A stretch of DNA of 64,000 bases from the human T2T-CHM13v2.0 reference genome, Homo sapiens, in NCBI RefSeq assembly GCF_009914755.1, contig NC_060946.1; one strand, given 5' to 3'. Below the pieces are notes generated by a model. It saw only the letters and a program-made list of their open reading frames with translations, did not search any database and was not told where the DNA came from. Positions 50,920 through 64,000 of this stretch are shown piece after piece (positions within the stretch are counted from its first letter, which is position 1; the number at the start of each line of letters is the position of its first letter). The translations under genes and the position numbers were made by a program.

Positions 50920-53463
<2,544 letters not shown>

Positions 53464-53756
53464 ACCCCTGAACCTGACCCTGACCCCTGACCCTGATCCC
53501 TAACCCCTGACCCTGACCCCTAACCCCTGACCCTAACCCTAACCCTTAACCGTAACCCCTAAGCCTAACCCCTAACCACAACCCTCACCCTCACACTAAT
53601 CCAACCCTAACCCCTTATCCCTAACCCCTAACCTCTCTTAACCTCTAACTCTAAACGTTGACTCTTAACTCTTAACTCTGACCCCAACCCCTATCTCCAA
53701 CCCCTAACCCTAAACTTAACCCCTAACCCCTAACCCTAACACCAACCTTAACCCTA
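53464..53756. repeat. Interstitial degenerate telomeric tract (CCCTAA/CCCTGA/CCCTCA variants)
   Basis: About 290 bp of directly visible hexamer variants. Confidence 0.95.
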
Positions 53757-54525
53757 GGTTCGTTACTACGTTTGTACTATGTCAATGTTGATTATTATGA
53801 TCTCTGTCTTAGGACTGCATGGCAGCAAGGGGATTGCGGATCTTATATTAATATTTTTGTATTGAGGCAGTGCATTAGCATTACAGGTGCTTGTTACATG
53901 AGCAATGGGAGTGTCATAATTTGGGTGTCATGTCTGCATTAGGAATGCTGCATTTGTCTTCCGAAGCTGCGGTGTGGATCTCGCACTGTGGCCGCCTCGG
54001 CTTGGCTGGGGAGAACCTCGGTTGGCAGGATTCAGAGGGGCTTTTGGTTTCCCTTTTCCACACTGAGCCCTTCTAACTGGTCTCTGGCCCTGATTATTCA
54101 GGGCTGCAAAAGGGAAGGATTTTATTCACCGTCTATGCGGTCCCGAGTTGTCCCAAAGCGAGGCAGTGCCCCAAAGGTCTGTGCTGAGGAGAACGCTGCT
54201 CTGCCTTAGCGGTGTCCCCCGGGTCTGTGCTGAGCAGAACGCAGCTCCGCCCTCGCGGTGCCCCCGGCCCGCCTGGGTCTGTGCTGAGGAGAACACTGCT
54301 CCGCCTTCGCTGTATCTCTGAAGTCTGTGCAGAGGAGAACTCAGCTCCGCCCTGGCGATGCTCTCCTTGGCTGTGCTGGGAAGAACGCAGCTCCGCCCTC
54401 GCAAAGGCGCACAGCGCCGGCACAGGCGCAGAGAGGCCCACAGCGCTGGCGAAAGGCGCAGAGAGGCCCACAGTGCCGGCGCAGGCGCAGAGAGGCCCAC
54501 AGCGCCGGCGCAGGCGCAGAGAGGC
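53757..54525. repeat. TAR1 telomere-associated repeat, including 37-bp-type repeats (~54177-54405) and 29-bp repeats (~54405-54525)
   Basis: 'gtctgtgctgaggagaacgcagctccgccctcgc' x5 and 'ggcccacagcgccggcgcaggcgcagaga' x4, next to the telomeric tract. Confidence 0.9.
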
Positions 54526-56052
54526 AGAAGGCCCATGAGGGGAAGGTGAGACACCTGGGGCAAAGAAGAAAAAAAAATGCGCCGCGAAGCAGTGTCTGGG
54601 TCATCCAGGGACGAAAGTTTTTTCCCATCAGCCCTTGCGCTGGGCCCCAGGGACCCTGGCATCCCTGGTTCACGCCCGGGGTGTGCCTCAGGCGACTAGG
54701 GGCACCCCAACTTGGACAGAAGGCCCATGAGTGGAAGTTGAAGTTTGTGGGAGGAGAGGTGAGGCACCAGGGGCAGAAAAAATAAAAAAAGAGGACCGCG
54801 TCTCAGAGAAGCGGGGCCTGGGTCCCCCACGGATGAAAGTGCCTTCCCATCAGGCCCTATGCTGGGCCTGGTGGACCCTGGCGACCCTGGTTCGAGCCCA
54901 GGGTGAGCCTCGGGACAGCTTGGGGTACCACAAAGCAAAGAAAAGGTCCATGAGGGGAAGGTGAGGCACCTGAGGCAGAGAAAAAAAAATGCTCAGCCGA
55001 GAAGCAGTGCCTGGGTCCCCCACGTATGAAAGTGACATCCCATCAGCCCCTTCGCTGGGCCCTGGGGACCCTGGCGTCCCTGGTTTGACCCTGGGGTATG
55101 CCTCGGGACAGTAGGGGTACCCCAAGGCGGGCAGAAAACCCCTAAGGGGAAGGTGAGGCACCTAGGGCAGAGAAAAAAAAAACTTCACCGCGGAGAAACA
55201 CGGCCTGGGTGCCCCACAGACGAAAGTGTCTTCCCATCAGTCCCTGCACTGGGACCCAGGGACCCTGGTGTCCCTCGTTCGAGCTCAGGGTGTGCCTCGG
55301 CCGCTAAGTGCACCCCAAGGGGGCTTTGGGGATACAAAACCCGTGAGGGGAAGGTGAGTTTTGAGGGAGGAGAGGTGAGGCACCTGTCACAGAAAAAGAA
55401 AAAAAAGAAACCCGCACCGCGGAAAGGTGGGGCCTGGGTACCCCACGGATGAAAGTGCCTTCCCATCAGCCCCTGCGCTGGGCCCCGGGGAACCTAGAGT
55501 CCCTGGTTGGAGCTCAGGGAGAGTCTCGGGCCACTAGGGATACCCCAACGCGGTGGAAAGTCCATGAGAGGAAGGTGAGCTGTGAGGGAGGAGAGGTGAG
55601 GCACTTGTGGCAGAAAAGAAAAAGAAACCGCGTCACGGAAAAGTGGGGCCTGGGTCTCCCATGGAAAAAAAGTGCCTTCCCATCAGTCCCTGAGCTGGGC
55701 CCCGTGGACCCAGGCGACCCTGGTTCTAGGCCTGGGTGCACCTCGGGCCCGCTAGGTGTACCCCAAAATGGGCAGAAGGCCCATGAGGGGAAGGTGAGGT
55801 TTGAGGGAAGAGAGGTGAGGCACCTGCGGCAGAAAAAAAAATAACCGTGGGGAAGAGAAGCGGGGCCTGGGTCTCCCACGGACGAAAGTGCCTTCTCATC
55901 AGCCCCTGCGCTGGGCCCCCTGGACTCTGGCGACCCTAGTTCAAGGACCAGAAGAGACTCCGGCATGCTAGGGTACCCTAAGGAAGCCAGAAAGCCCATG
56001 AGGGGAAGGCGAGATTTAAGGGAGGAGAGGTGAGTCACCTGTGGCAGAAAAA

Positions 56053-56129
<77 letters not shown>

Positions 56130-57555
56130 CACCTCGGAGAAGCCGGGCCTGGGTCCCCACTGATGAAAGTGCCTTCCCAACTCGGGCCTGCTCGTGGTAC
56201 CCCAAAGCAGGCAGAAGGCCAGTGAGGGGAAGGTGAGGCACCAGGGGCGGAGAAAAAAATCCGCAGCTTTGAGAAGCGGGGCCTGGATACGCACCGATGA
56301 AGGTACCTTCCCATCAGCCCCTGCGCTAGGCCCCAGCAACCATGGCATCCATGGTTCGAGTCCAGGGAGAGCCTTGGGCCGCTAGGGGTACCCCAAGTAG
56401 AGCAGAAAGCCCATGATGGGAAGTTGACATTTGAGGGAGGAGAGGTGAGGAACCTGTGGCAGAAAAAAAAAAAAGAAAACAAGCCGCGCCTAGGAGAAGC
56501 TGGGCCTGGGTCCCCCAAGGATGAAAATGCCTTCCCATCAGTCCCTGCGCTGGGCCCTGTGGACGCTGGAAACCCCGGTTCGAGCTCCGGGTGCACCTCG
56601 GGCCTGCTAGGGGTACCACAAGGGGGGCAGAAATCCCATGAGGGGCAGTTGAGGTTTGAGGAAGGAGAGGTGAGGCACCTGTGGCAGAAAAAAAAAACTG
56701 CACCACGAAGAAGCGGAGCCTGGGTCCCCAACGGACGAAAGGGTCTTCCCATCAGCCCTTGCGCTGGGCACAGGGGACCCTGGCATTCCTGGTTTGAGAC
56801 CAGGGTGCGCTTCAGGCCGCTAGGGGTACCCCAAGACAGACAGAAGGCCCATGAGGGAAAGGTGAGACACCTGGGGCAGAGAACAAAATAGAAAAGTGCG
56901 CCCCCCAGAAGTGGGGCCTGGGTTCCCCATGGACGAACGTCCCTACCCATAAGCCCTACACTGGGCCCCGGAGACCCTAGCATCCCTGGCTCAAAACAAG
57001 GGTGCGCCTCGGGCCGGCTAGGGGTACCTCAGGGCGGGCAGAAAGCCCATGACGGGAAAGTGAGGCACCTGGGGAAAAGAAAAGAAAAAAAACGCCACAA
57101 AGAAGCAGAGCCTGGGTCCCCGAGGAAGAACGTGTCTTATCATCAGCCACTGCGCTTGACCCTGTGGAACCTGGCTTACATGGTTCGAGCCCAGGGTGTG
57201 CCTTGGGCCGCTAGGGGTACCCCAAAGCGTGCAGAAGGCACAAGAGGGGAAGGTGAGGTACCTGGGGCAGAGAAAAAAAAATCCAGCCGCGGAGAAGCGG
57301 GGACTGGGTCCTCCACACGGACGAAAGTGTCTTCCCATCAGGCCTTGGGCTGGGCCTCAGGGACCCCGGAGTCCCTGGTTCGATCCCACAGTGCACCTCG
57401 GGCGGCTAGGTGTACCCCAAGGCAGACAGAAGGCACATGAGGGGAAGGTGAGATTTGAGGAATGAGAGGAGAGGCATCTATGGGAGGAAAAAAAAAACCG
57501 CGCAACGGAGAAGCAGGGCATGGGTTCCCCACAGACGAAAGTGCCTTCCCATCAG
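54526..57555. repeat. GC-rich ~190-225 bp tandem repeat with A-tracts (~15 units), a subunit of the ACRO composite repeat
   Basis: Units of 'cagaaggcccatgaggggaaggtgag..gcacctg..gcagaaaaaaa..gaaagtgccttcccatcag..ctaggggtacccc' start at ~54526, 54717, 54941, 55131, 55334, 55555, 55773, 55988, 56212, 56403, 56628, 56841, 57039, 57232 and 57427. Confidence 0.85.
56061..56126. repeat. (AT)33 microsatellite
   Basis: A perfect run following an A-tract. Confidence 0.97.
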
Positions 57556-57740
57556 GCACTGAGGGTTTGAAACAGAATGAGGAGTGACTAATGTCTACTG
57601 GGTTTTTCTCTGGTCGGGGGTGATAAGACGTTCTACAATGGATTGCGAATTAAAATTGAATGTGCACAACCACAGGTATACTAAAAACCACTCAATTCAT
57701 GACTTTTAATGGGGGAATCTTAAGTGGCGCACTCTCATGG
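57556..57740 (+). mobile_element. L1M (L1MB-like) 3'UTR fragment
   Basis: 'gaggagtgactaatg..gggtttttc..ggggtgataa..tatactaaaaaccactcaatt'. Confidence 0.65.
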
Positions 57741-58379
57741 AGACCACGGCAGACATAGTGAGAGAGAAAAAGGTGAGTAAATACCTGAAACGGAGGCAGA
57801 AACAGAGAGAATGAAAAGCCCTGTGAATGGAAGGGAGAGCGAAAAGGGAAAATGGTCCTATTTAAAATGACAGATGTGAAACTGGGGTTCACATCAACAG
57901 TGTCACCGCCAGGAAGGAGGGTGATGCTAGCCACGTCACCGGTAGTGTGTCCCGCAGGGACGCCGACCTGCTGGAGCGTCATACCAGCATGGGCTCTGGC
58001 AGCCATGTGGGCCAGCAGGAGGTTCCCGCTGCAGAGCTGTGGGGTGAGGATAGACTGGGTGGTAATATCGGCCATGACAGGGGCCTCTTCTGCTGGCAAG
58101 AGTGTGACAGTAGCAAGTAGATGGACAGGCCTGCGTGTGAGGACAGAATGCAGGAGCGGCTCTTGTGCGGCTTGGTGTGGGGCCCTCACGGGAACCGTGG
58201 AGTAATGACCATGTAACTGCGTCATGTGGGCTAGTAGACTGGCCAGGGATTCGAACTGAAGGACAATAACGGGGAGTAGCTGTCAGGCCCTGGGAGTGTC
58301 TGAGTGTAAGTGGAGATGGGTTTGGGGTCACTGAGGGATGCGTGGGAGCCATCCCTGTATAGGTACAGGTCATAGGGAG

Positions 58380-60110
58380 ATAGTCTCGTGTGGCCTGTGA
58401 GTGTCTAGGGTTGTCCTGGGTGCCAGGGGCTGACTGTGGCAGAAATGTGGGGAAGGCTGGAGAGAAGCTGGGAGACCCAGGAGAGTCCCTGAAGGCAGGG
58501 GGTGAAGAGGTGAAAGAAATGAGGGAGGGTTGCAGTAAGGTCCGTGAGTTTGTAGGTGATTCCTGGGTGCGGGAAGCTGACTCCAGGTGAAATCTGGAGA
58601 TGGTTGCAGAGTAGCTGAGAGAGACAGAAGAGTCCCTGAGGGCTGGGGGTGAGCACATGAGGGAGACTGGGGAGTAAGTCAGTGAAATTCGTGAGTTCGG
58701 TGGTGTATCGTGGGTGCCTGGAACTGACTCCAGCTAGAATCTACAGAAGTTTGAGAGTAGCTGAAAGAGACACAAGAGTCCCTGTGGGCTGAGGGCAAAG
58801 ACCTGAGAGAGACCAGGGAGGACGTCAGTGAAGTCTGTGAGTCCGTAGGTGATTCTGGAGTGTGGGAGGCTGACTCCCGCTGAAATCTGGGCGTGGTGGG
58901 GGAGTAGCTGGGACAGACAGGCGAGTCCCTGAGGGTTCGAGATAAAGAGGGGCTAGAGACTGGGGAGTAACTCAGTGAAAGTGGTGGGCTTGGCGGTGAT
59001 CCCTGGGTTCCTGGAACTGACTCCCGCTGAAATGCGGGTGTGGTTGGAGAGTAGCTGGGACAGACTGGAGGGTCCCAGGGGGCTGGGGGTGAAGACATGA
59101 GAGAGACTGGGGAGTAACTCAGTGAAACTGCTGAGTTTGTAGGTGATACCTGGGTGCCTGGAACTGACTCACGCTGAAATCTGGGCATGGTTGGAGAGTA
59201 GCTGGGACACACAGGAGAGTCCCTGAGGGCTGGGGGTGAAGACATGAGAGAGACCGGGGAGTAACTGAGTGAAACTTTTGAGTTTGGTGGTGACCCCGGG
59301 GTGCCTGGAACTGACTCCAGCTGCAATGTGGGCGTGGTTGGAGAGTAGCTGGGACAGACGGGAGAGTCCCTGAGGGCTGGTGAAGACATGAGAGAGACTG
59401 GAGAGTAATTGAGTGAAATTGGTGAGTTTGGTGGTGATTCCTGGGTGCCTGGAACTGACTCCCGCTGAAGTGTGGGCGTGGATGGAGAGTAGCTGGGACA
59501 CACAGGAGAGTCCCTGAGGGTTGGAGATAAAGACGTGCTAGAGACTGAGGAGTAACTGAGTGAAATTGGTGAGTTTGGTGGTGATTCCGGGGTGCCTGGA
59601 ACTGACTCCAGCTGCAATGTGGGCGTGGTTGGAGAGTAGCTGGGACAGACGGGAGAGTCCCTGAGTGATGGTGAAGACATGAGAGAGACTGGGGAGTAAC
59701 GCAGTGAAATTGGTGAGTTTGGTGGTGATTTCTGGGTGCCTGCAACGGACTCCCGCTGAAGTGTGGGCGTGTTTGGAGAGTAGCTGGGACAGACAGGCGA
59801 GTCCCTGAGGGTTGGAGATAAAGACGTGCTAGAGACTGGGGAGTAACTCAGTGAAAGTGGTGGGCTTGGCGGTGATCCCTGGGTTCCTGGAACTGACCCG
59901 CGCTGAAATGTGGGCGTGGTTGGAGAGTAGCTGGGACAGACTGGAGGGTCTGTAAGGGCTGGGGGTGAAGACGTGAGAGAGACTGCCCAGGATCTCACTG
60001 AGGTCTGTGAGTTTGTAGGTGTTTCTGGGGTGTGGGGTACAGACTGCCGCGGAAATCTGGGCGTGGTTGGAGAGTAGCTGGGACAGACAGGAGAGTCATG
60101 GGTGGCTGGG
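58380..60110. repeat. ACRO1-type 147-bp satellite (~12 units; further degenerate units at 60440-60720)
   Basis: 'gagagtagctgggac' occurs at 59047, 59194, 59341, 59485, 59632, 59776, 59923 and 60070, giving periods of 147 or 144 bp. Confidence 0.88.
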
Positions 60111-60571
60111 GGTGAGCTGCTGGATGATGGCAGTAAGAACATATGGTATATTATTGATGAATGAGGTGACTGTGAAGAATCTCCAGAGGAGGACACGGGA
60201 GAACACAATGACATGAGTGACTGTCCTGCTTGGTTAGGAAAGGGAAACGTAAAGCTGTGGAATTCTGTTGATGATGGATGTGAGAGTGGTGAAGCCCTGC
60301 GGGATGATGTAGAGTACTTCCACATCCCTGGTGAGGAGCTGCCCCTTGGGACTGAGTTTCTGGGAGGGGAGAGGGAGAAGCTGGGTGAGGCAGGCATGAA
60401 TCTTGAGGAGTCAGGGCTGGGGGACCGCTCATATTCTCCCGAGACCTGTGAGTCTCTGGGGGACTCCAGGGTGCATGGGGCTGACTCCCGCAGGAACCTG
60501 GGGATGGCTGGAGAGTAACTGGGATCCACAGGAGAGTCCCTGAGGCCTGAGGGTGAAGAGACGGAAGACAC
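58679..60571 (-). CDS. 630-codon open frame of 48/49-aa repeats (RDSPVCPSYSPTTPTLQRESVPGTQESPPNSPISLSYSPVSLMSSPAL); RPB1-CTD-like, predicted disordered
   Basis: From the ORF track. It starts at GTG, and the first in-frame ATG at 60397 would give 572 aa. It contains 16 YSP motifs, 6 of them YSPTTP. Expression is not shown. Confidence 0.45.
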   Translation of the reverse strand: MSSVSSPSGLRDSPVDPSYSPAIPRFLRESAPCTLESPRDSQVSGEYERSPSPDSSRFMPASPSFSLSPPRNSVPRGSSSPGMWKYSTSSRRASPLSHPSSTEFHSFTFPFPNQAGQSLMSLCSPVSSSGDSSQSPHSSIIYHMFLLPSSSSSPPATHDSPVCPSYSPTTPRFPRQSVPHTPETPTNSQTSVRSWAVSLTSSPPALTDPPVCPSYSPTTPTFQRGSVPGTQGSPPSPPLSLSYSPVSSTSLSPTLRDSPVCPSYSPNTPTLQRESVAGTQKSPPNSPISLRYSPVSLMSSPSLRDSPVCPSYSPTTPTLQLESVPGTPESPPNSPISLSYSSVSSTSLSPTLRDSPVCPSYSPSTPTLQRESVPGTQESPPNSPISLNYSPVSLMSSPALRDSPVCPSYSPTTPTLQLESVPGTPGSPPNSKVSLSYSPVSLMSSPPALRDSPVCPSYSPTMPRFQRESVPGTQVSPTNSAVSLSYSPVSLMSSPPAPWDPPVCPSYSPTTPAFQRESVPGTQGSPPSPPLSLSYSPVSSPSLSRTLRDSPVCPSYSPTTPRFQRESASHTPESPTDSQTSLTSSLVSLRSLPSAHRDSCVSFSYSQTSVDSSWSQFQAPTIHHRTHEFH

Positions 60572-61074
60572 AGGGGTGGAGCACCGTGAGGCTCATGAGT
60601 TTGTAGGTGATTCCTGGGTGTGGGGGGCTGACTCCAGCTGAAATCTGGGGTTGTTTGGAGAGTAGCTGGGAGACACAGGAGACCCCCCGAGAGCTGGGGG
60701 TGAGCTGCTGGGTGATGGCAGTAAGAACATGTGGTATATTATTGATGAACGTGGGGACTCTGAGGAATCCTCAGAGGAGGACACGGGAGAGCCCGATGGC
60801 TTCATTGATTGCCCATCACGGTGAGGACAGGGAAATGCGAGCTTGTGGGATTCTGGTGATGACAGAGGTGAGTGTGGTGAAGCCCTAGGGGATGGTGAAT
60901 GGTAGCTCCGGATCCCTGGTGAGGAGCTTCCCCTTAAGCCTGAGCTTCTGAGAGGGGAGAGGGAGAAGCTGGGTGAGGCTCGCATGGACCTTGGGGTGTC
61001 CGGGCTGGGGGACCGTTCATAAGAAGAGCCAGACAAGACCCTACTGTTCTTAGGTGCAGACATGATTAGGAAAC

Positions 61075-61244
61075 CTGCAGCTCCCAGGGGCCCCTACTAA
61101 TTTTCTAACTCGCAGAAGGAAGGAGTGTGTGTGCTTGTGTGTGTGTGTGTGTGCGTGTGTGTGCGTGTGTGTGTCTGTGTGTGTGCGGTGTGAGGTATGT
61201 GCCCCTTAAGAAAATGGAAATCAACCAACCAATGAGACAGACAC

Positions 61245-61285
<41 letters not shown>

Positions 61286-61292
61286 GATTCAC
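61075..61292 (-). other. Predicted 218-nt 5'UTR intron containing (TCTG)n and (CA)n tracts
   Basis: Donor CAA|gtgaat at 61292 and acceptor ctgcag|G at 61075, 11 nt before the ATG at 61063. Both sites are non-optimal. Confidence 0.5.
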
Positions 61293-61406
61293 TTGCCCAA
61301 GTGTTCTGTCCTTTCCTCTGAATCTGCTTCCAAGTGGCAAGACGCCGTGAGCTCCAAGTCCACGCACAGTCCGCCAAACGCTCCGACCGCTGATCCGCTC
61401 CGCGAA

Positions 61407-61498
61407 GATCTGAGTACAGGCCAGCCAGGGTGGGTTTAAATACCCTCGGGCGCAGCCTAGCAGCGGAAAGGGCGGAGCTTCACCCCTCCTTTCCGTCA
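61407..61498 (-). promoter_or_regulatory. Pol II core promoter: half-CRE, GC box, TATA and Inr
   Basis: TATTTAAA lies at 61442-61435 and the Inr TCAGATC has A+1 at 61411, putting TATA at -31. GGGCGG is at 61470-61475 and TGACG at 61498-61494. Confidence 0.6.
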
Positions 61499-61789
61499 GT
61501 CACCCCCAACTTTCCCAGGCTACACCTCGTAGGAAACTGTTCTCCTGCTTTGATTTCATGCGCCACCTTTGGGACAATCTAAGAACTTCCAAGTTTTCTT
61601 GGCCAGATATATTAGGAATTGTATGCACTGAAACACTGAAAAGCAACTAGTGGTTCTGTGGTTCCCACGTTGTGGTTTTGACACCAGCAGCATCCTTGCC
61701 ACAATCAAACCCCGGAGATCCACAGATCTGTGTTGTAACAAGACCTCCCCCTGACCCTGATGCATGGCAGTTTAAGAAGTCTTTCCGTG

Positions 61790-62490
61790 TAAGCGAAAAG
61801 ACTTTGAAGAAAGGGTGGAGATATGCGTTGTATAAACATTCTTTTGCTCCGGAACCACGTGGAGTCTTGGGAGCCAGTTGGGTGGAGCATTCGTTGGATG
61901 AGGGTGCTCGGGTTCGGAATATCAAGGTGTGGTTCCAGATAATCCAATCATCTAATTAAGATTCCAGTTGTGCTCATCTGTTTTAAAATTCCGTTTGGGT
62001 AAATTCTTTTAGTCAGACTGAGAATGGCAAAGCCTCAATCCCAATTTCCAGGGAGGGTTGACAGCCTCAGGTGGAGTTGATCACCAATAGCCTATGGTTT
62101 AACCCATCATGCCTATAGAATGAGGTCTCCATAAAAACCCAAAAGGACTGGGTTCAGGGAGCTTCTGGATAACACTTCCTGGAAGGTAGTGCGCCCCTCC
62201 CCACATGCCGGGCCCCACATTTATTTCTGAGCTTTTTGCAATGTCCGCTAAAATACAACGGCAAATGTGAGTGTTTCCCTGAGTGCTGTGAGCTCTTCCA
62301 GCAAATGAATGCAACTAAATCTGGGAGTGGTGGCAACCTGATTTATAGCAAGTTGCTGAGAAGCACAGGTGAAACAACGTAGGGCTTCCCATTGTTATTA
62401 GTGTGGGAGGCCTGTCTGGCGGGACTCGGCCCTTTGGAATCTAATGCTATGTCCCGGTAGATAGCGTCACCATTGAATTAGAAGACACAC
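61790..62490 (+). mobile_element. MER21-type LTR (preceded by a MER5-like fragment at ~61649-61780)
   Basis: 'gagttgatcaccaat..catgcctat..ctccataaaaacccaaaaggactgggttcagggagcttc', 'gtgtttccctgagtgctgtgagc'. Confidence 0.7.
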
Positions 62491-62659
62491 ATATGTTGAG
62501 AATAATCTTTCTGGTCATTTGCCGCATGTCCTATTTACAATATGTAATCAAATTCTTTATCCTGACCTTATGGCACCTGGGTTGAGAACCATGATTTGAA
62601 CCAAACATTGGTCTGTCACTTTCGGAGTTGGAAACTTTATTTTGCCTTTAGCGTTTTGC

Positions 62660-62965
62660 TATTGCTTTTTCGTTTTCTTTTGTTTCGTTTCGTTTCTAAG
62701 TGCTGGGGTATACGTGCAGGATGGGCAGATTTGTTACTAAGGTAAACGTGTGCCATGGTGGTTTGCTGCACCTGTCAACCCATCACCTAGGTATTAAGCC
62801 CAGCATGCAGGAGCTGTTTTTCTTAACGCTCTGCCTCCCGAAAGGCCCCAGTGTGTGTTGTTCCCCTTCCTGTGTCCATGTGATCTCATTTTTCAGCTCC
62901 CATTATAAGTGAGAATGTGGCGTTTGGTTTTCTTTCCCTGGATTAGTTTGCTGAGGATAATGACC
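62660..62965 (-). mobile_element. L1PA 3' end fragment
   Basis: 'ggtaaacgtgtgccatggtggtttgctgcacctgtcaacccatcacctaggtattaagccc'. Confidence 0.88.
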
Positions 62966-63706
62966 ACACATCACCACTGATTTGTTTTTTAGTATAAAGA
63001 GTAGTATTTTATTGAATAAGATTTGCTCACAGAAAAATAAGCTTAAATCTACAATGAATGCCAGACTCTACAGCAGAAAGCAATTTTCTCACTTTTCCAC
63101 ACACAATGGTTCCTACTAAGTGAAAAAAGCCATAAAATTTCATTCACAAATGTACTACTCTGTCTCAAAACATCTCACATAATCATGCACTGTACTAAAG
63201 CCATTAGATCAGTTCTTCAGTCAGGTTAAAGAAGTATCCCTCTAATAACTGACTTTTGTAATGCTATCAGTAGGCACTCCCAATCAGTCTGCCATTGTTA
63301 ATGGTGTACAGCATTACTGCATACACTGGAATTGATGACACCCATATCCACGGACAAACCGAGACTTATGATGGTTTGATTCATGATTTTTCAACGTTAT
63401 GATGGGTTTATTGGAATATTAGATGCGTTTCTGAGTTACACTGGGTTTATGAGTATGCGACCCTATACTCCAGAAACAGCTGTATAAGGAAAAACAGGTG
63501 TACCTAATAAAAATATGCTTAGTGACTTGGGATAAACCAATAGATGTTCACAACTGATGGAGAGCCGTGAAAGAGAGATAGCGGTAAATAGTTACAATAA
63601 CACAAGTTTCCTGCACCTGTCGAGGATTTCCCCAAAAAAACGCAGAATGTGGGATGCACCTAAGGCATATGAAAGAGAGAGGGCAGAAGGAGTAAGAGAG
63701 AAATAG

Positions 63707-63805
63707 GAGGAAGGAAGGAAGGAAGGAAAGAAGGAAGGTAGGAAGGAAGGAAGGAAGGAAAGAAGGAAGGAAGGAAGGAAGCAAAGAAGGACGAACGGAA
63801 GGAGG
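63707..63805. repeat. (GGAA)n microsatellite
   Basis: Directly visible. Confidence 0.92.
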
Positions 63806-63854
63806 AAACACCCGGTGTTACTAAAACCCCCCAAAAATATGGTTTCCCCCTGTG

Positions 63855-64000
63855 GGTAAGCCTACAGTGTGGATGAATCTTGAAAATATTGTGCTACGTG
63901 TTATGTCAGTCATAACAGCTCACCTATTGTGCAATTCCGTTTATAGGAAATGTCCACAATATGGAAATCTATGCATATGGGGTTGATCGCACTAGGTAGT
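63855..64000 (+). mobile_element. L1M (L1MB-like) 3'UTR fragment; the part lying upstream of the 57556-57740 piece
   Basis: 'gtggatgaatcttgaaaatattgtgctacgtg..tattgtgcaattccgtttataggaaatgtcca'. Confidence 0.65.

What the first reader, a model, noticed from the sequence alone, without database searches (positions are those of the whole stretch)
58679..60571. The encoded repeat is a spaced-out mimic of the Pol II CTD
Seen: each 48/49-aa unit has PSYSPTTP (CTD register: PSYSPTSP) and usually a second YSPVS. There are 16 YSP motifs in the 630-codon frame and many further SP/TP sites. Established: CTD heptads are substrates for CDK7/9/12 and Pin1, bind CID/WW readers, and drive condensate partitioning. 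Inference: the protein could act as a CTD decoy or condensate scaffold, and could cross-react with anti-CTD antibodies.
Basis: partly seen in the sequence, partly recalled or inferred. Interest (0 to 1): 0.7.

Follow-up and report, generated by a model that had tools for sequence, protein, structure and literature searches.

The report
ACRO1 satellite with CTD-like reading frame
This stretch is a copy of the known human ACRO1 satellite, whose resemblance to the tail of RNA polymerase II when translated was already published in 2020, and this copy's reading frame is broken.

Summary
The minus strand of 58679-60592 is open for 637 codons with 16 YSP and 10 PSYSP, from a 147-bp (49-codon) tandem repeat.

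It is the ACRO1 satellite inside the ~6-kb ACRO composite ("ACRE"). Unit size, anatomy, ~6.2-kb tandem period and chromosome spread all fit.

The CTD likeness is in print. Boots et al. 2020 (PMC7714431) report 23 of 49 residues identical and show that ACRO1 RNA binds Pol II and silences transcription in cis.

New here:
- The likeness also holds at DNA level. The unit is seven 21-nt sub-repeats, 82/147 identical in register to the POLR2A heptad consensus; shuffles reach at most 72.
- In 12 of 18 fully covered copies the frame runs 955-1101 codons with a shared Met and end. A collinear marmoset predicted protein exists.
- Copy-to-copy variants look neutral. Older differences show a weak excess of synonymous changes.
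- YSP is not specially conserved.

The window copy is the array's edge copy, with a stop and a 1-bp deletion. A CTD-decoy protein is unsupported.

The parts
57561..64000 (-). Left-most (edge) copy of a tandem array of the ~6.2-kb ACRO composite (ACRE). The array continues beyond the window's right end.
   Evidence: Megablast of the next copies (L021) against the window aligns from 57561 to 64000 at 92.5-96.5% identity. The next copies lie 6177, 6167 and 6163 bp further on.
58458..60115 (-). Long ACRO1 array: 147-bp units, 11.3 copies, two of them 144 bp. It encodes the 48/49-residue units.
   Evidence: TRF; unit spacing of 49/48 residues; 16-mer core GGAGAGTAGCTGGGAC at 147/144-bp spacing.
58679..60592 (-). 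It is an internal fragment of the family's 955-1101-codon frame.
60092..60436 (-). Non-array spacer module A, about 115 codons and S/P-rich. [quoted passage not shown]
   Evidence: supplementary text of PMC7714431. Coordinates derived by me from the residue positions.
60437..60679 (-). Short ACRO1 array, about 1.7 units.
   Evidence: core copies at 60510 and 60657. The published ACRE has 'two more' units here.
60593..60595 (-). In-frame TGA that breaks the family frame in this copy. L011 reads Arg at this codon, and no other copy whose frame runs through this point has a stop here.
   Evidence: Sequence (tca on the + strand); ORF list; comparison.
60680..61093 (-). Spacer module A' (an older duplicate of A, offset 588 nt = 4 x 147) plus the N-terminal end with the family's shared Met codon at 61061-61063.
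58750..58752 (-). 1-bp deletion in an A4/T4 run. It shifts the frame, so the tail is read in another frame.
   Evidence: The C segment is 842 nt instead of 843 in the window copy only, 1 of 17 copies. Position read.
57936..58733 (-). Decayed ACRO1 units and the non-repeat tail of the family frame, here in a shifted frame (265 codons). It overlaps exon 57907-58225 of the annotated pseudogene LOC124908435.
   Evidence: the hub's gene table.
61940..61950 (+). TAATCCAATCA, a match to the DUX4 binding consensus (motif recalled from memory), about 880 nt upstream of the Met.
   Evidence: 1 match in the window, 0.82 expected by chance. It is present at the same relative place in 19 of 20 copies with upstream cover.

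Best explanation
The stretch is a copy of the primate-specific ACRO1 satellite: 147-bp units inside the ~6-kb ACRO composite, ACRE. This one is the diverged edge copy of an array on the short arm of chromosome 22.

Its CT-rich strand reads as a Ser/Pro-rich frame that resembles the Pol II CTD. The 147-bp unit is built from seven diverged 21-nt sub-repeats, and these most likely descend from heptad-coding DNA of the POLR2A CTD type. This origin is inferred.

The frame stays open for three reasons:
- The period is a multiple of three.
- The strand is poor in stop-prone codons.
- The copies are young and homogenised.

In this copy the frame is already broken, and nothing suggests it makes a protein. 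The activity that has been shown for the family is at RNA level. The nascent ACRO1 transcript binds Pol II and aborts its own transcription in cis (shown by others, PMC7714431). Transcription is induced by DUX4 and peaks in the early embryo (shown by others).
For: Identity as ACRO1/ACRE:
- 147-bp period, 11.3 units.
- About 345-nt spacer, then about 1.7 more units. This matches the published pattern of 7-15 units, about 332 bp, and two units.
- Tandem period of 6163-6177 bp and about 6.3-6.6 kb elsewhere.
- Copies on chr13, 14, 15, 21, 22 short arms, the chr4 pericentromere and chr3, as published.
- My hand count is 22 of 49 residues identical to PTSPSYS x7, against the published 23 of 49.

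Descent from heptad-coding DNA:
- Cyclic autocorrelation of the unit peaks at lags 21/42/63 (65/61/62 matches). My estimate of the background, from the other lags printed, is about 41.
- 82/147 nt are identical to the POLR2A consensus 21-mer in register. The other 20 registers give 29-63. 2000 base shuffles and 2000 codon shuffles give means of 57.9 and 59.4, maximum 72.
- Only 2 of 12 Ser codons are AGY, and both sit just before TAC. In the CTD, Ser7 is AGY in 22 of 26 cases.
- blastn of the ACRE frame against the POLR2A locus gives 263 HSPs, best E 6e-17. The 15 best listed all lie inside the heptad region. The reversed control has best E 0.72.

Non-coding now:
- Among unique copy-to-copy substitutions in 1846 nt of non-array frame, synonymous changes are 26 against 33.0 expected and 24 against 24.1 expected.
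- Stop-gains are 3 against 6.0 and 3 against 3.4.
- The window copy has a stop and a frameshift.
- No Pfam domain and no Rfam family.
Against: - The family frame is longer and more regular than a satellite needs. It runs 955-1101 codons with one shared Met and one shared end in 12 of 18 fully covered copies. It crosses about 400 codons that are not ACRO1 units, while the other two sense frames of those segments hold 4-10 stops each.
- A marmoset database protein of 832 aa is collinear from the same Met to the same tail, with 398/591 identical and only 4 gap positions.
- Older differences lean synonymous in this frame only. Module A against A' gives 42 against 32.0 expected (P 0.026) and NG86 dN/dS 0.53. 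Unit against unit gives 35 against 26.1 (P 0.016) with 0 stops against 2.3.
- I could not align the window to the Dfam/Repbase ACRO1 consensus or to GenBank KF726396, so the family name rests on anatomy and distribution.
- Descent from POLR2A is not proven. No homology outside the heptads appeared among the 15 best HSPs listed.
Confidence: 0.75

Rival explanations
1. The ACRE carries a real, multi-copy, primate-specific protein-coding gene. It has about 950-1100 codons in a single exon, starts at the shared Met, and is transcribed under DUX4 at embryonic genome activation. Its product is a disordered Ser/Pro-rich protein with degenerate CTD-like heptads. The window copy is a dead member of that family.
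For: - Shared Met and shared end in 12 of 18 fully covered copies.
- A at -3 of the Met, no upstream ATG within 300 nt, and a poly(A) hexamer 226 nt after the stop in 4 of the 5 copies examined, 289 nt in the fifth.
- A collinear marmoset predicted protein with almost no gaps.
- A synonymous excess in older differences in this frame only.
- A DUX4-consensus motif about 850-880 nt upstream in 19 of 20 copies.
- Published DUX4 induction, a 4-cell-stage peak and germline hypomethylation of ACRO1 (passages read in PMC8990217, PMC12776069, PMC6545021, PMC5832720).
- In a family of hundreds of copies, selection on any one copy is weak. Neutral copy-level variation therefore does not exclude it (inference).
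Against: - Copy-level variants show no amino-acid constraint, and stop-gains occur near the neutral rate: 6 observed against 9.4 expected.
- The apparent lack of indels in the frame is largely explained by microsatellites and homopolymers in the control segments. About 28 of the 34 control indels lie in them.
- The P values for older constraint are about 0.02 each, with three frames tested.
- The YSP motifs are not conserved in marmoset.
- 1.1-1.4 kb of ACRO1 nearly abolishes the RNA product of a reporter in the aptamer orientation, and no stable transcript was found in HeLa (PMC7714431). This makes a full-length mRNA unlikely if the aptamer strand is the coding strand, which I infer but could not check.
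- The marmoset entry is an automatic model, and I had no DNA for it.
Confidence: 0.13
2. The CTD likeness is a coincidence of composition. Any CT-rich 147-bp repeat read in an open frame gives Ser/Pro/Thr-rich text, and there is no historical link to POLR2A.
For: - The PDB matches carry very high bias scores.
- Pfam's CTD repeat model PF05001 is not matched at E<=1.
- There is no exact YSPTSPS.
- No homology to POLR2A outside the heptads appeared among the 15 best HSPs listed.
- Marmoset units are less CTD-like at the first motif than the human young units. Part of the likeness may therefore have been fixed late by homogenisation.
Against: - In-register DNA identity is 82/147, against a maximum of 72 in 4000 shuffles and 29-63 in the other registers.
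- The unit has 21-nt internal periodicity.
- The AGY/TCN serine codon classes are placed as in the CTD.
- blastn gives E 6e-17 against 0.72 for the reversed control.
- BLASTP with compositional adjustment gives E 1e-6.
Confidence: 0.1

Closest known systems
ACRO1 satellite / ACRO composite repeat ('ACRE'; Boots et al. 2020, PMC7714431; 'ACRO' in bioRxiv 10.64898/2025.12.22.696095)
   Same: 147-bp unit. A long array of 7-15 units, a spacer of about 332 bp, and two more units. A roughly 6-kb composite in tandem. Location on the acrocentric short arms, the chr4 pericentromere and chr3. A translation about half identical to the CTD.
   Different: Nothing in kind. This copy is the diverged edge copy of its array, 92.5-96.5% identical to its neighbours, and its frame is broken. 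Among the 10 papers matched by my search 'ACRO1' + 'open reading frame' (8 listed, seen as a listing only), none looked from its title or abstract to be about a family-wide 955-1101-codon frame.
C-terminal domain of RNA polymerase II largest subunit (RPB1/POLR2A heptads YSPTSPS, Pfam PF05001)
   Same: Seven-residue register of Ser-Pro. A PSYSPT core with the same codon classes (CCC AGC TAC TCN CCN ACN). 82/147 nt identical to the consensus 21-mer in register.
   Different: Only 2 of 7 heptads per unit keep Tyr. There is no exact YSPTSPS and no Pfam match. There is no polymerase body. The units are 49 residues and sit in heterochromatic satellite arrays.
Marmoset database protein P0003 (UniRef/nr entry named 'DNA-directed RNA polymerase II subunit RPB1', Callithrix jacchus, 832 aa)
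   Same: Collinear with the human ACRE frame from the same Met through both spacer modules, the array and the tail: 398/591 identical with 4 gap positions.
   Different: It has fewer units, and most units lack YSP at the first motif. One stretch is read in the alternative frame (my reading). It is an automatic prediction named by similarity, not a polymerase.

Membership tests
ACRO1 satellite / ACRE composite | Tandem unit of 147 bp | tested here: met
   TRF period 147, 11.3 copies, 58458-60115. The 16-mer core recurs at 147/144-bp spacing.
ACRO1 satellite / ACRE composite | Long array of 7-15 units, then about 325-362 bp of other sequence, then two more units (supplementary text of PMC7714431) | tested here: met
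   11.3 units, a spacer of about 345 nt (60092-60436), and a short array of about 243 nt (60437-60679).
ACRO1 satellite / ACRE composite | Part of a ~6-kb composite repeated head to tail, mostly on acrocentric short arms, and also at the chr4 pericentromere | tested here: met
   Periods of 6163-6177 bp next to the window and about 6.3-6.6 kb elsewhere. Copies on chr13, 14, 15, 21, 22, 4 and 3. 264 matches and 481 first-look candidates, both lower bounds.
ACRO1 satellite / ACRE composite | Sequence match to the Dfam/Repbase ACRO1 consensus or GenBank KF726396 | not testable with these tools
   No repeat library or GenBank access was available, and the paper's text and readable supplements print no ACRO1 sequence.
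RNA polymerase II CTD (Pfam PF05001 heptad repeat) | Tandem heptads matching YSPTSPS well enough for the family model | tested here: not met
   No PF05001 hit at E<=1 and 0 exact YSPTSPS. The genome-wide PF05001 search found nothing at all, POLR2A included, so it is uninformative.
RNA polymerase II CTD (Pfam PF05001 heptad repeat) | Sits at the C-terminus of an RPB1 polymerase body | tested here: not met
   No Pfam domain in any of the three frame pieces. PDB matches are confined to the CTD part of RPB1 chains.
RNA polymerase II CTD (Pfam PF05001 heptad repeat) | Phosphorylated by CDK7/9/12 and read by CID/WW domains | not testable with these tools
   Needs expression and biochemistry.
Functional protein-coding gene | Intact frame in this copy | tested here: not met
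   TGA at 60593-60595 and a 1-bp deletion at 58750-52.
Functional protein-coding gene | Purifying selection on the encoded residues | tested here: inconclusive
   Copy-level variants are neutral: synonymous 50 against 57.1 expected, stops 6 against 9.4. Older differences show a synonymous excess at P 0.016-0.026 in this frame only.
Functional protein-coding gene | Transcript of the coding strand that is translated | not testable with these tools
   Only published statements on ACRO1 RNA levels were available, and the passages I read gave no strand.

The most novel reading that the evidence does not exclude
The ACRO composite is not only a satellite. It would also be a several-hundred-copy, primate-specific gene family. 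Each intact copy would carry a single-exon frame of about 950-1100 codons, kept from marmoset to human, with its own Met, a nearby DUX4 site and a poly(A) signal. It would be switched on at embryonic genome activation. Its product would be a disordered Ser/Pro-rich protein descended from Pol II CTD heptads, which could compete for CTD kinases or readers, or join Pol II condensates, just when the embryo's genome first fires. The window copy would be a dead edge member.
Probability: 0.12. Interest if true: 0.8.

Novelty: already known. Interest (0 to 1): 0.3.

Why it matters
It therefore adds little by itself.

- The likeness holds at DNA level, in 21-nt register and in serine codon class. This turns the published speculation that ACRO1 descends from CTD-coding sequence into a testable claim.
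- The frame is far longer and more regular across copies, and in a New World monkey, than a satellite requires.
- ACRO1 is among the repeats that DUX4 turns on in the cleavage-stage embryo.

Complete ape genomes and embryo ribosome profiling now exist. Whether these arrays are ever translated can be settled with existing data.

Tried and rejected
- Pfam scan of the three frame pieces found only an insignificant DCR hit, E 0.28.
- Rfam at gathering thresholds over 53000-64000 found nothing.
- The genome-wide search with Pfam PF05001 returned nothing, not even POLR2A, so it says nothing. I found POLR2A instead with a degenerate heptad pattern. It gave 25 matches, all at chr17:7417171-7418126 and none in ACRO1.
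- I first read the lack of indels in the frame (1 in 1846 nt against 34 in 3295 nt of control) as selection. I withdrew that reading after seeing that about 28 of the 34 control indels lie in microsatellites or homopolymer runs. With those removed the contrast is not significant (my estimate).
- The spacer modules are not clearly decayed ACRO1 units. In-phase identity is 35-47%, against a shuffled background of 42.8 +/- 5.3 of 147. Only their 3' ends are unit-like.
Statements on marmoset motifs are my reading of the alignment.
The 18 fully covered copies come from the best-scoring hits and are not a random sample of the 481 or more candidates.
- The supplementary figures of PMC7714431 are PDFs and could not be read. 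These hold the ACRE map, the SELEX read stacks on the unit and the ACRO1-CTD alignment. I therefore could not check which part and which strand of the unit is the Pol II aptamer.
Full report
**The observation**

The minus strand of 58679-60592 is open from stop to stop for 637 codons. It holds 16 YSP, 10 PSYSP, 6 PSYSPTTP, 6 YSPVS, 56 SP and no exact YSPTSPS. So the count of 16 is exact, but "each unit has PSYSPTTP" is overstated.

The frame is made by a tandem repeat of 147 bp at 58458-60115, with 11.3 copies, 78% matches and higher-order periods of 291 and 438 bp. Two units are 144 bp long, giving the 48/49-residue units.

From the residue counts, composition alone would give about one YSP (my arithmetic). 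The copies are duplicates, however, so the independent content is two motifs per unit.

**What it is**

A paper search led to Boots et al. 2020, Transcription 11:217 (PMC7714431). I read the abstract, sections 7, 12 and 15, and the supplementary text. It describes the ACRO1 satellite as follows:
- A 147-bp unit.
- All of this inside a ~6-kb higher-order element, the ACRE.
- Copies clustered at the chr4 pericentromere and on the acrocentric short arms.

A 2025-26 preprint describes the same 6-kb ACRO composite (ACRO1 + L1PA10 + MER21B + L1MB8), with more than 90% of its bases on acrocentrics (passages read).

The window fits on every point I could test:
- 11.3 units, a spacer of about 345 nt (60092-60436), and about 1.7 more units (60437-60679).
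- The same element repeats 6177, 6167 and 6163 bp further along chr22, just beyond the window.
- Near-identical copies in 6.3-6.6-kb register lie on chr13, 14, 15, 21, 22, 4 and 3. The searches gave 264 matches and 481 first-look candidates, both lower bounds.

I could not align the window to the Dfam/Repbase consensus or to GenBank KF726396. The name therefore rests on anatomy and distribution. Homology to the neighbouring copies starts at 57561, so the window holds the left-most, edge copy of its array.

The same paper states that the ACRO1 consensus, translated in silico, is identical to a CTD fragment at 23 of 49 residues and reflects the heptad repeat. It also states:
- ACRO1 RNA was among the most enriched Pol II binders in a genomic SELEX (1029 sense against 1 antisense mappings).
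- 1.1-1.4 kb of ACRO1 nearly abolishes the RNA product of a reporter in cis, co-transcriptionally. The reverse complement does not.
- The authors speculate that ACRO1 derives from CTD mRNA.

My hand count on the unit consensus gives 22 of 49 against PTSPSYS x7.

**Is the likeness more than composition?**

Yes, and it holds at DNA level. I located the POLR2A heptads at chr17:7417171-7418126 with a degenerate motif pattern. All 25 matches were there and none was in ACRO1. I then tabulated their codons.

- The ACRO1 unit shows internal periodicity. Cyclic autocorrelation gives 65, 61 and 62 matches at lags 21, 42 and 63. My estimate of the background, from the other lags printed, is about 41. So 147 bp = 7 x 21.
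- Laid in register on the CTD consensus 21-mer, 82 of 147 bases agree. The other 20 registers give 29-63. Over 2000 base shuffles and 2000 codon shuffles, taking the best register each time, the means are 57.9 and 59.4 and the maximum is 72.
- Of 12 serine codons in the unit only 2 are AGY, and both stand directly before TAC. In the CTD, Ser7 is AGY in 22 of 26 cases.
- blastn of the whole ACRE frame against the 3-kb POLR2A locus gives 263 HSPs, best E 6e-17. The 15 best listed are 213-371 nt at 56-60% identity and all lie inside the heptad region. Against the reversed locus the best E is 0.72.
- BLASTP with compositional adjustment gives E 1e-6.
- All 13 PDB sequences matched are RPB1, though with high bias.
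- Pfam's CTD model is not matched.

I read this as descent from heptad-coding DNA. It is not membership of the CTD family.

**Is it a gene?**

In other copies the frame is much longer. I examined 18 fully covered copies: 12 loci, three neighbours of the window, one each from chr14 and chr21, and the window itself.
- 12 have a frame of 955-1101 codons with the same beginning (including one Met) and the same end.
- 3 have 895-1058 codons with a shortened start or end.
- 3, the window among them, are broken into pieces.

These copies came from the best-scoring hits and are 96-100% identical, so they are not independent. I collapsed copy-to-copy differences to unique events. I compared them with 1000 re-placements of the same base changes on sites of the same base and CpG status:

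| Segment | Length | Unique events | Synonymous obs / exp | Stop-gain obs / exp |
|---|---|---|---|---|
| N-terminal | 1003 nt | 126 | 26 / 33.0 | 3 / 6.0 |
| C-terminal | 843 nt | 92 | 24 / 24.1 | 3 / 3.4 |

The other two frames behave alike. Substitution density equals that of the non-frame parts of the ACRE: 126 and 109 per kb against 96 and 120. Recent evolution is therefore neutral in this frame.

The frame segments have 1 indel event against 34 in the control segments. About 28 of those 34 lie in (TTCC)n, (TCTG)n, (CA)n or homopolymer runs. I do not count this as evidence of selection.

**Signals the other way**

- The two spacer modules A' and A are an old duplication, offset by 588 nt (4 x 147). 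They align without a gap at 76% identity. Differences by codon position are 35/46/61. NG86 dN/dS is 0.53, against 1.57 and 0.88 in the other frames.
- By re-placement over the first 540 nt, synonymous differences are 42 against 32.0 expected (P 0.026; 44 against 33.5, P 0.021, on the other background). This is seen in this frame only.
- Unit-to-unit differences give 35 synonymous against 26.1 expected (P 0.016) and 0 stops against 2.3.
- A search with an intact neighbour frame found six database proteins. One is a marmoset entry of 832 residues that a pipeline named "DNA-directed RNA polymerase II subunit RPB1". It runs collinear with the human frame from the same Met through both spacers, the array and the tail: 398 of 591 identical with 4 gap positions. 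One stretch is read in the alternative frame (my reading). Another hit is a "Plasmodium ovale" hypothetical protein at 96% identity. That fits published human-repeat contamination of assemblies (PMC6581058; passages read).
- The Met has A at -3 and no ATG within 300 nt upstream. A poly(A) hexamer lies 226 nt after the stop in 4 of the 5 copies examined, and 289 nt after it in the fifth.
- A match to the DUX4 consensus (motif recalled) lies about 850-880 nt upstream in 19 of 20 copies. In the window itself one match is no more than chance: 0.82 are expected.
- Published passages say DUX4 activates ACRO1 transcription, that ACRO1 RNA peaks at the 4-cell stage, and that ACRO1 is hypomethylated in the male germline.

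Among human units the first motif (CPSYSP, 15-18 nt) has no variant at all, synonymous positions included. The second YSP has 7 events in 9 nt, against 0.54-0.59 events per nt in the rest of the unit. Events by codon position are 25/22/30 and 22/28/33.

In the marmoset alignment the first motif keeps YSP in 3 of 8 aligned units (my reading). The YSP codons are thus not selectively kept. The invariance in human is the mark of recent homogenisation of one variant, or of a DNA/RNA-level constraint.

**State of the window copy**

- A TGA at 60593-60595 separates the 637-codon piece from the 166-codon piece that holds the Met. L011 reads Arg at this codon, and no other copy whose frame runs through this point has a stop here.
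- A 1-bp deletion at 58750-52, unique among 17 copies, throws the tail into another frame.
- The tail overlaps an exon of the annotated pseudogene LOC124908435.

**How it most likely works**

Shown by others: ACRO1 RNA binds Pol II and stops its own transcription in cis, and the repeat is activated by DUX4 and in early embryos.

Shown here: this locus is such a repeat. The CTD likeness is in 21-nt register. The frame is family-wide but recently neutral.

Inferred: the unit descends from CTD-type heptad-coding DNA. The open frame is mainly a legacy of that origin, kept by period, strand composition and homogenisation. The aptamer strand is the CT-rich strand, which I could not verify because the figures are unreadable here.

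A translated CTD-like protein is not excluded at the level of the family. I put it at about 0.12. It is unsupported for this copy.

Noticed in passing
window 53463-53756: Interstitial telomere-type repeat (CCCTAA)n with degenerate variants, about 290 bp, 3.8 kb to the left of the ACRE array boundary.
   Followed up: no
window 54176-57452: A block of GC-rich tandem repeats with periods 46/100, 29/59 and 193-225 bp. It lies between the telomere-type repeat and the ACRE array and looks subtelomere-like. I did not identify the family.
   Followed up: no
window 61940-61950 and the same place in 19 of 20 other ACRE copies: TAATCCAATCA, a match to the DUX4 binding consensus (recalled), about 850-880 nt upstream of the family frame's Met. 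This fits published DUX4 activation of ACRO1.
   Followed up: partly
window 58899-60084; core 16-mer at 147/144-bp spacing: GGAGAGTAGCTGGGAC is exact in 8 units, has 1 mismatch in 2 more, and has 2 mismatches in another 2. It is the reverse complement of the CPSYSP codons and the most invariant part of the unit. Part of it (AGTAGCTGGGA) also occurs in Alu elements (recalled). Whether it is the published Pol II-binding region is unknown to me.
   Followed up: partly
protein P0005: A 'hypothetical protein' of Plasmodium ovale wallikeri, also labelled PIR superfamily in UniRef, is 96% identical to the human ACRE frame. It is almost certainly human satellite contamination in that assembly.
   Followed up: no
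N and C segments of the ACRE frame across copies: Transitions are only 57 of 126 and 44 of 92 unique substitutions. This is low for human point mutation. Gene conversion between the two 76-79%-identical modules, or assembly error, might contribute.
   Followed up: no
window 61125-61285: (GT)n and (AGAC)n microsatellites just upstream of the frame. They are the main source of length differences between ACRE copies.
   Followed up: partly
L026 (chr21:6532000-6539000): Two ACRE copies in opposite orientation. One has its frame running into unrelated sequence after 726 codons, which suggests an inversion or insertion breakpoint inside an array.
   Followed up: no
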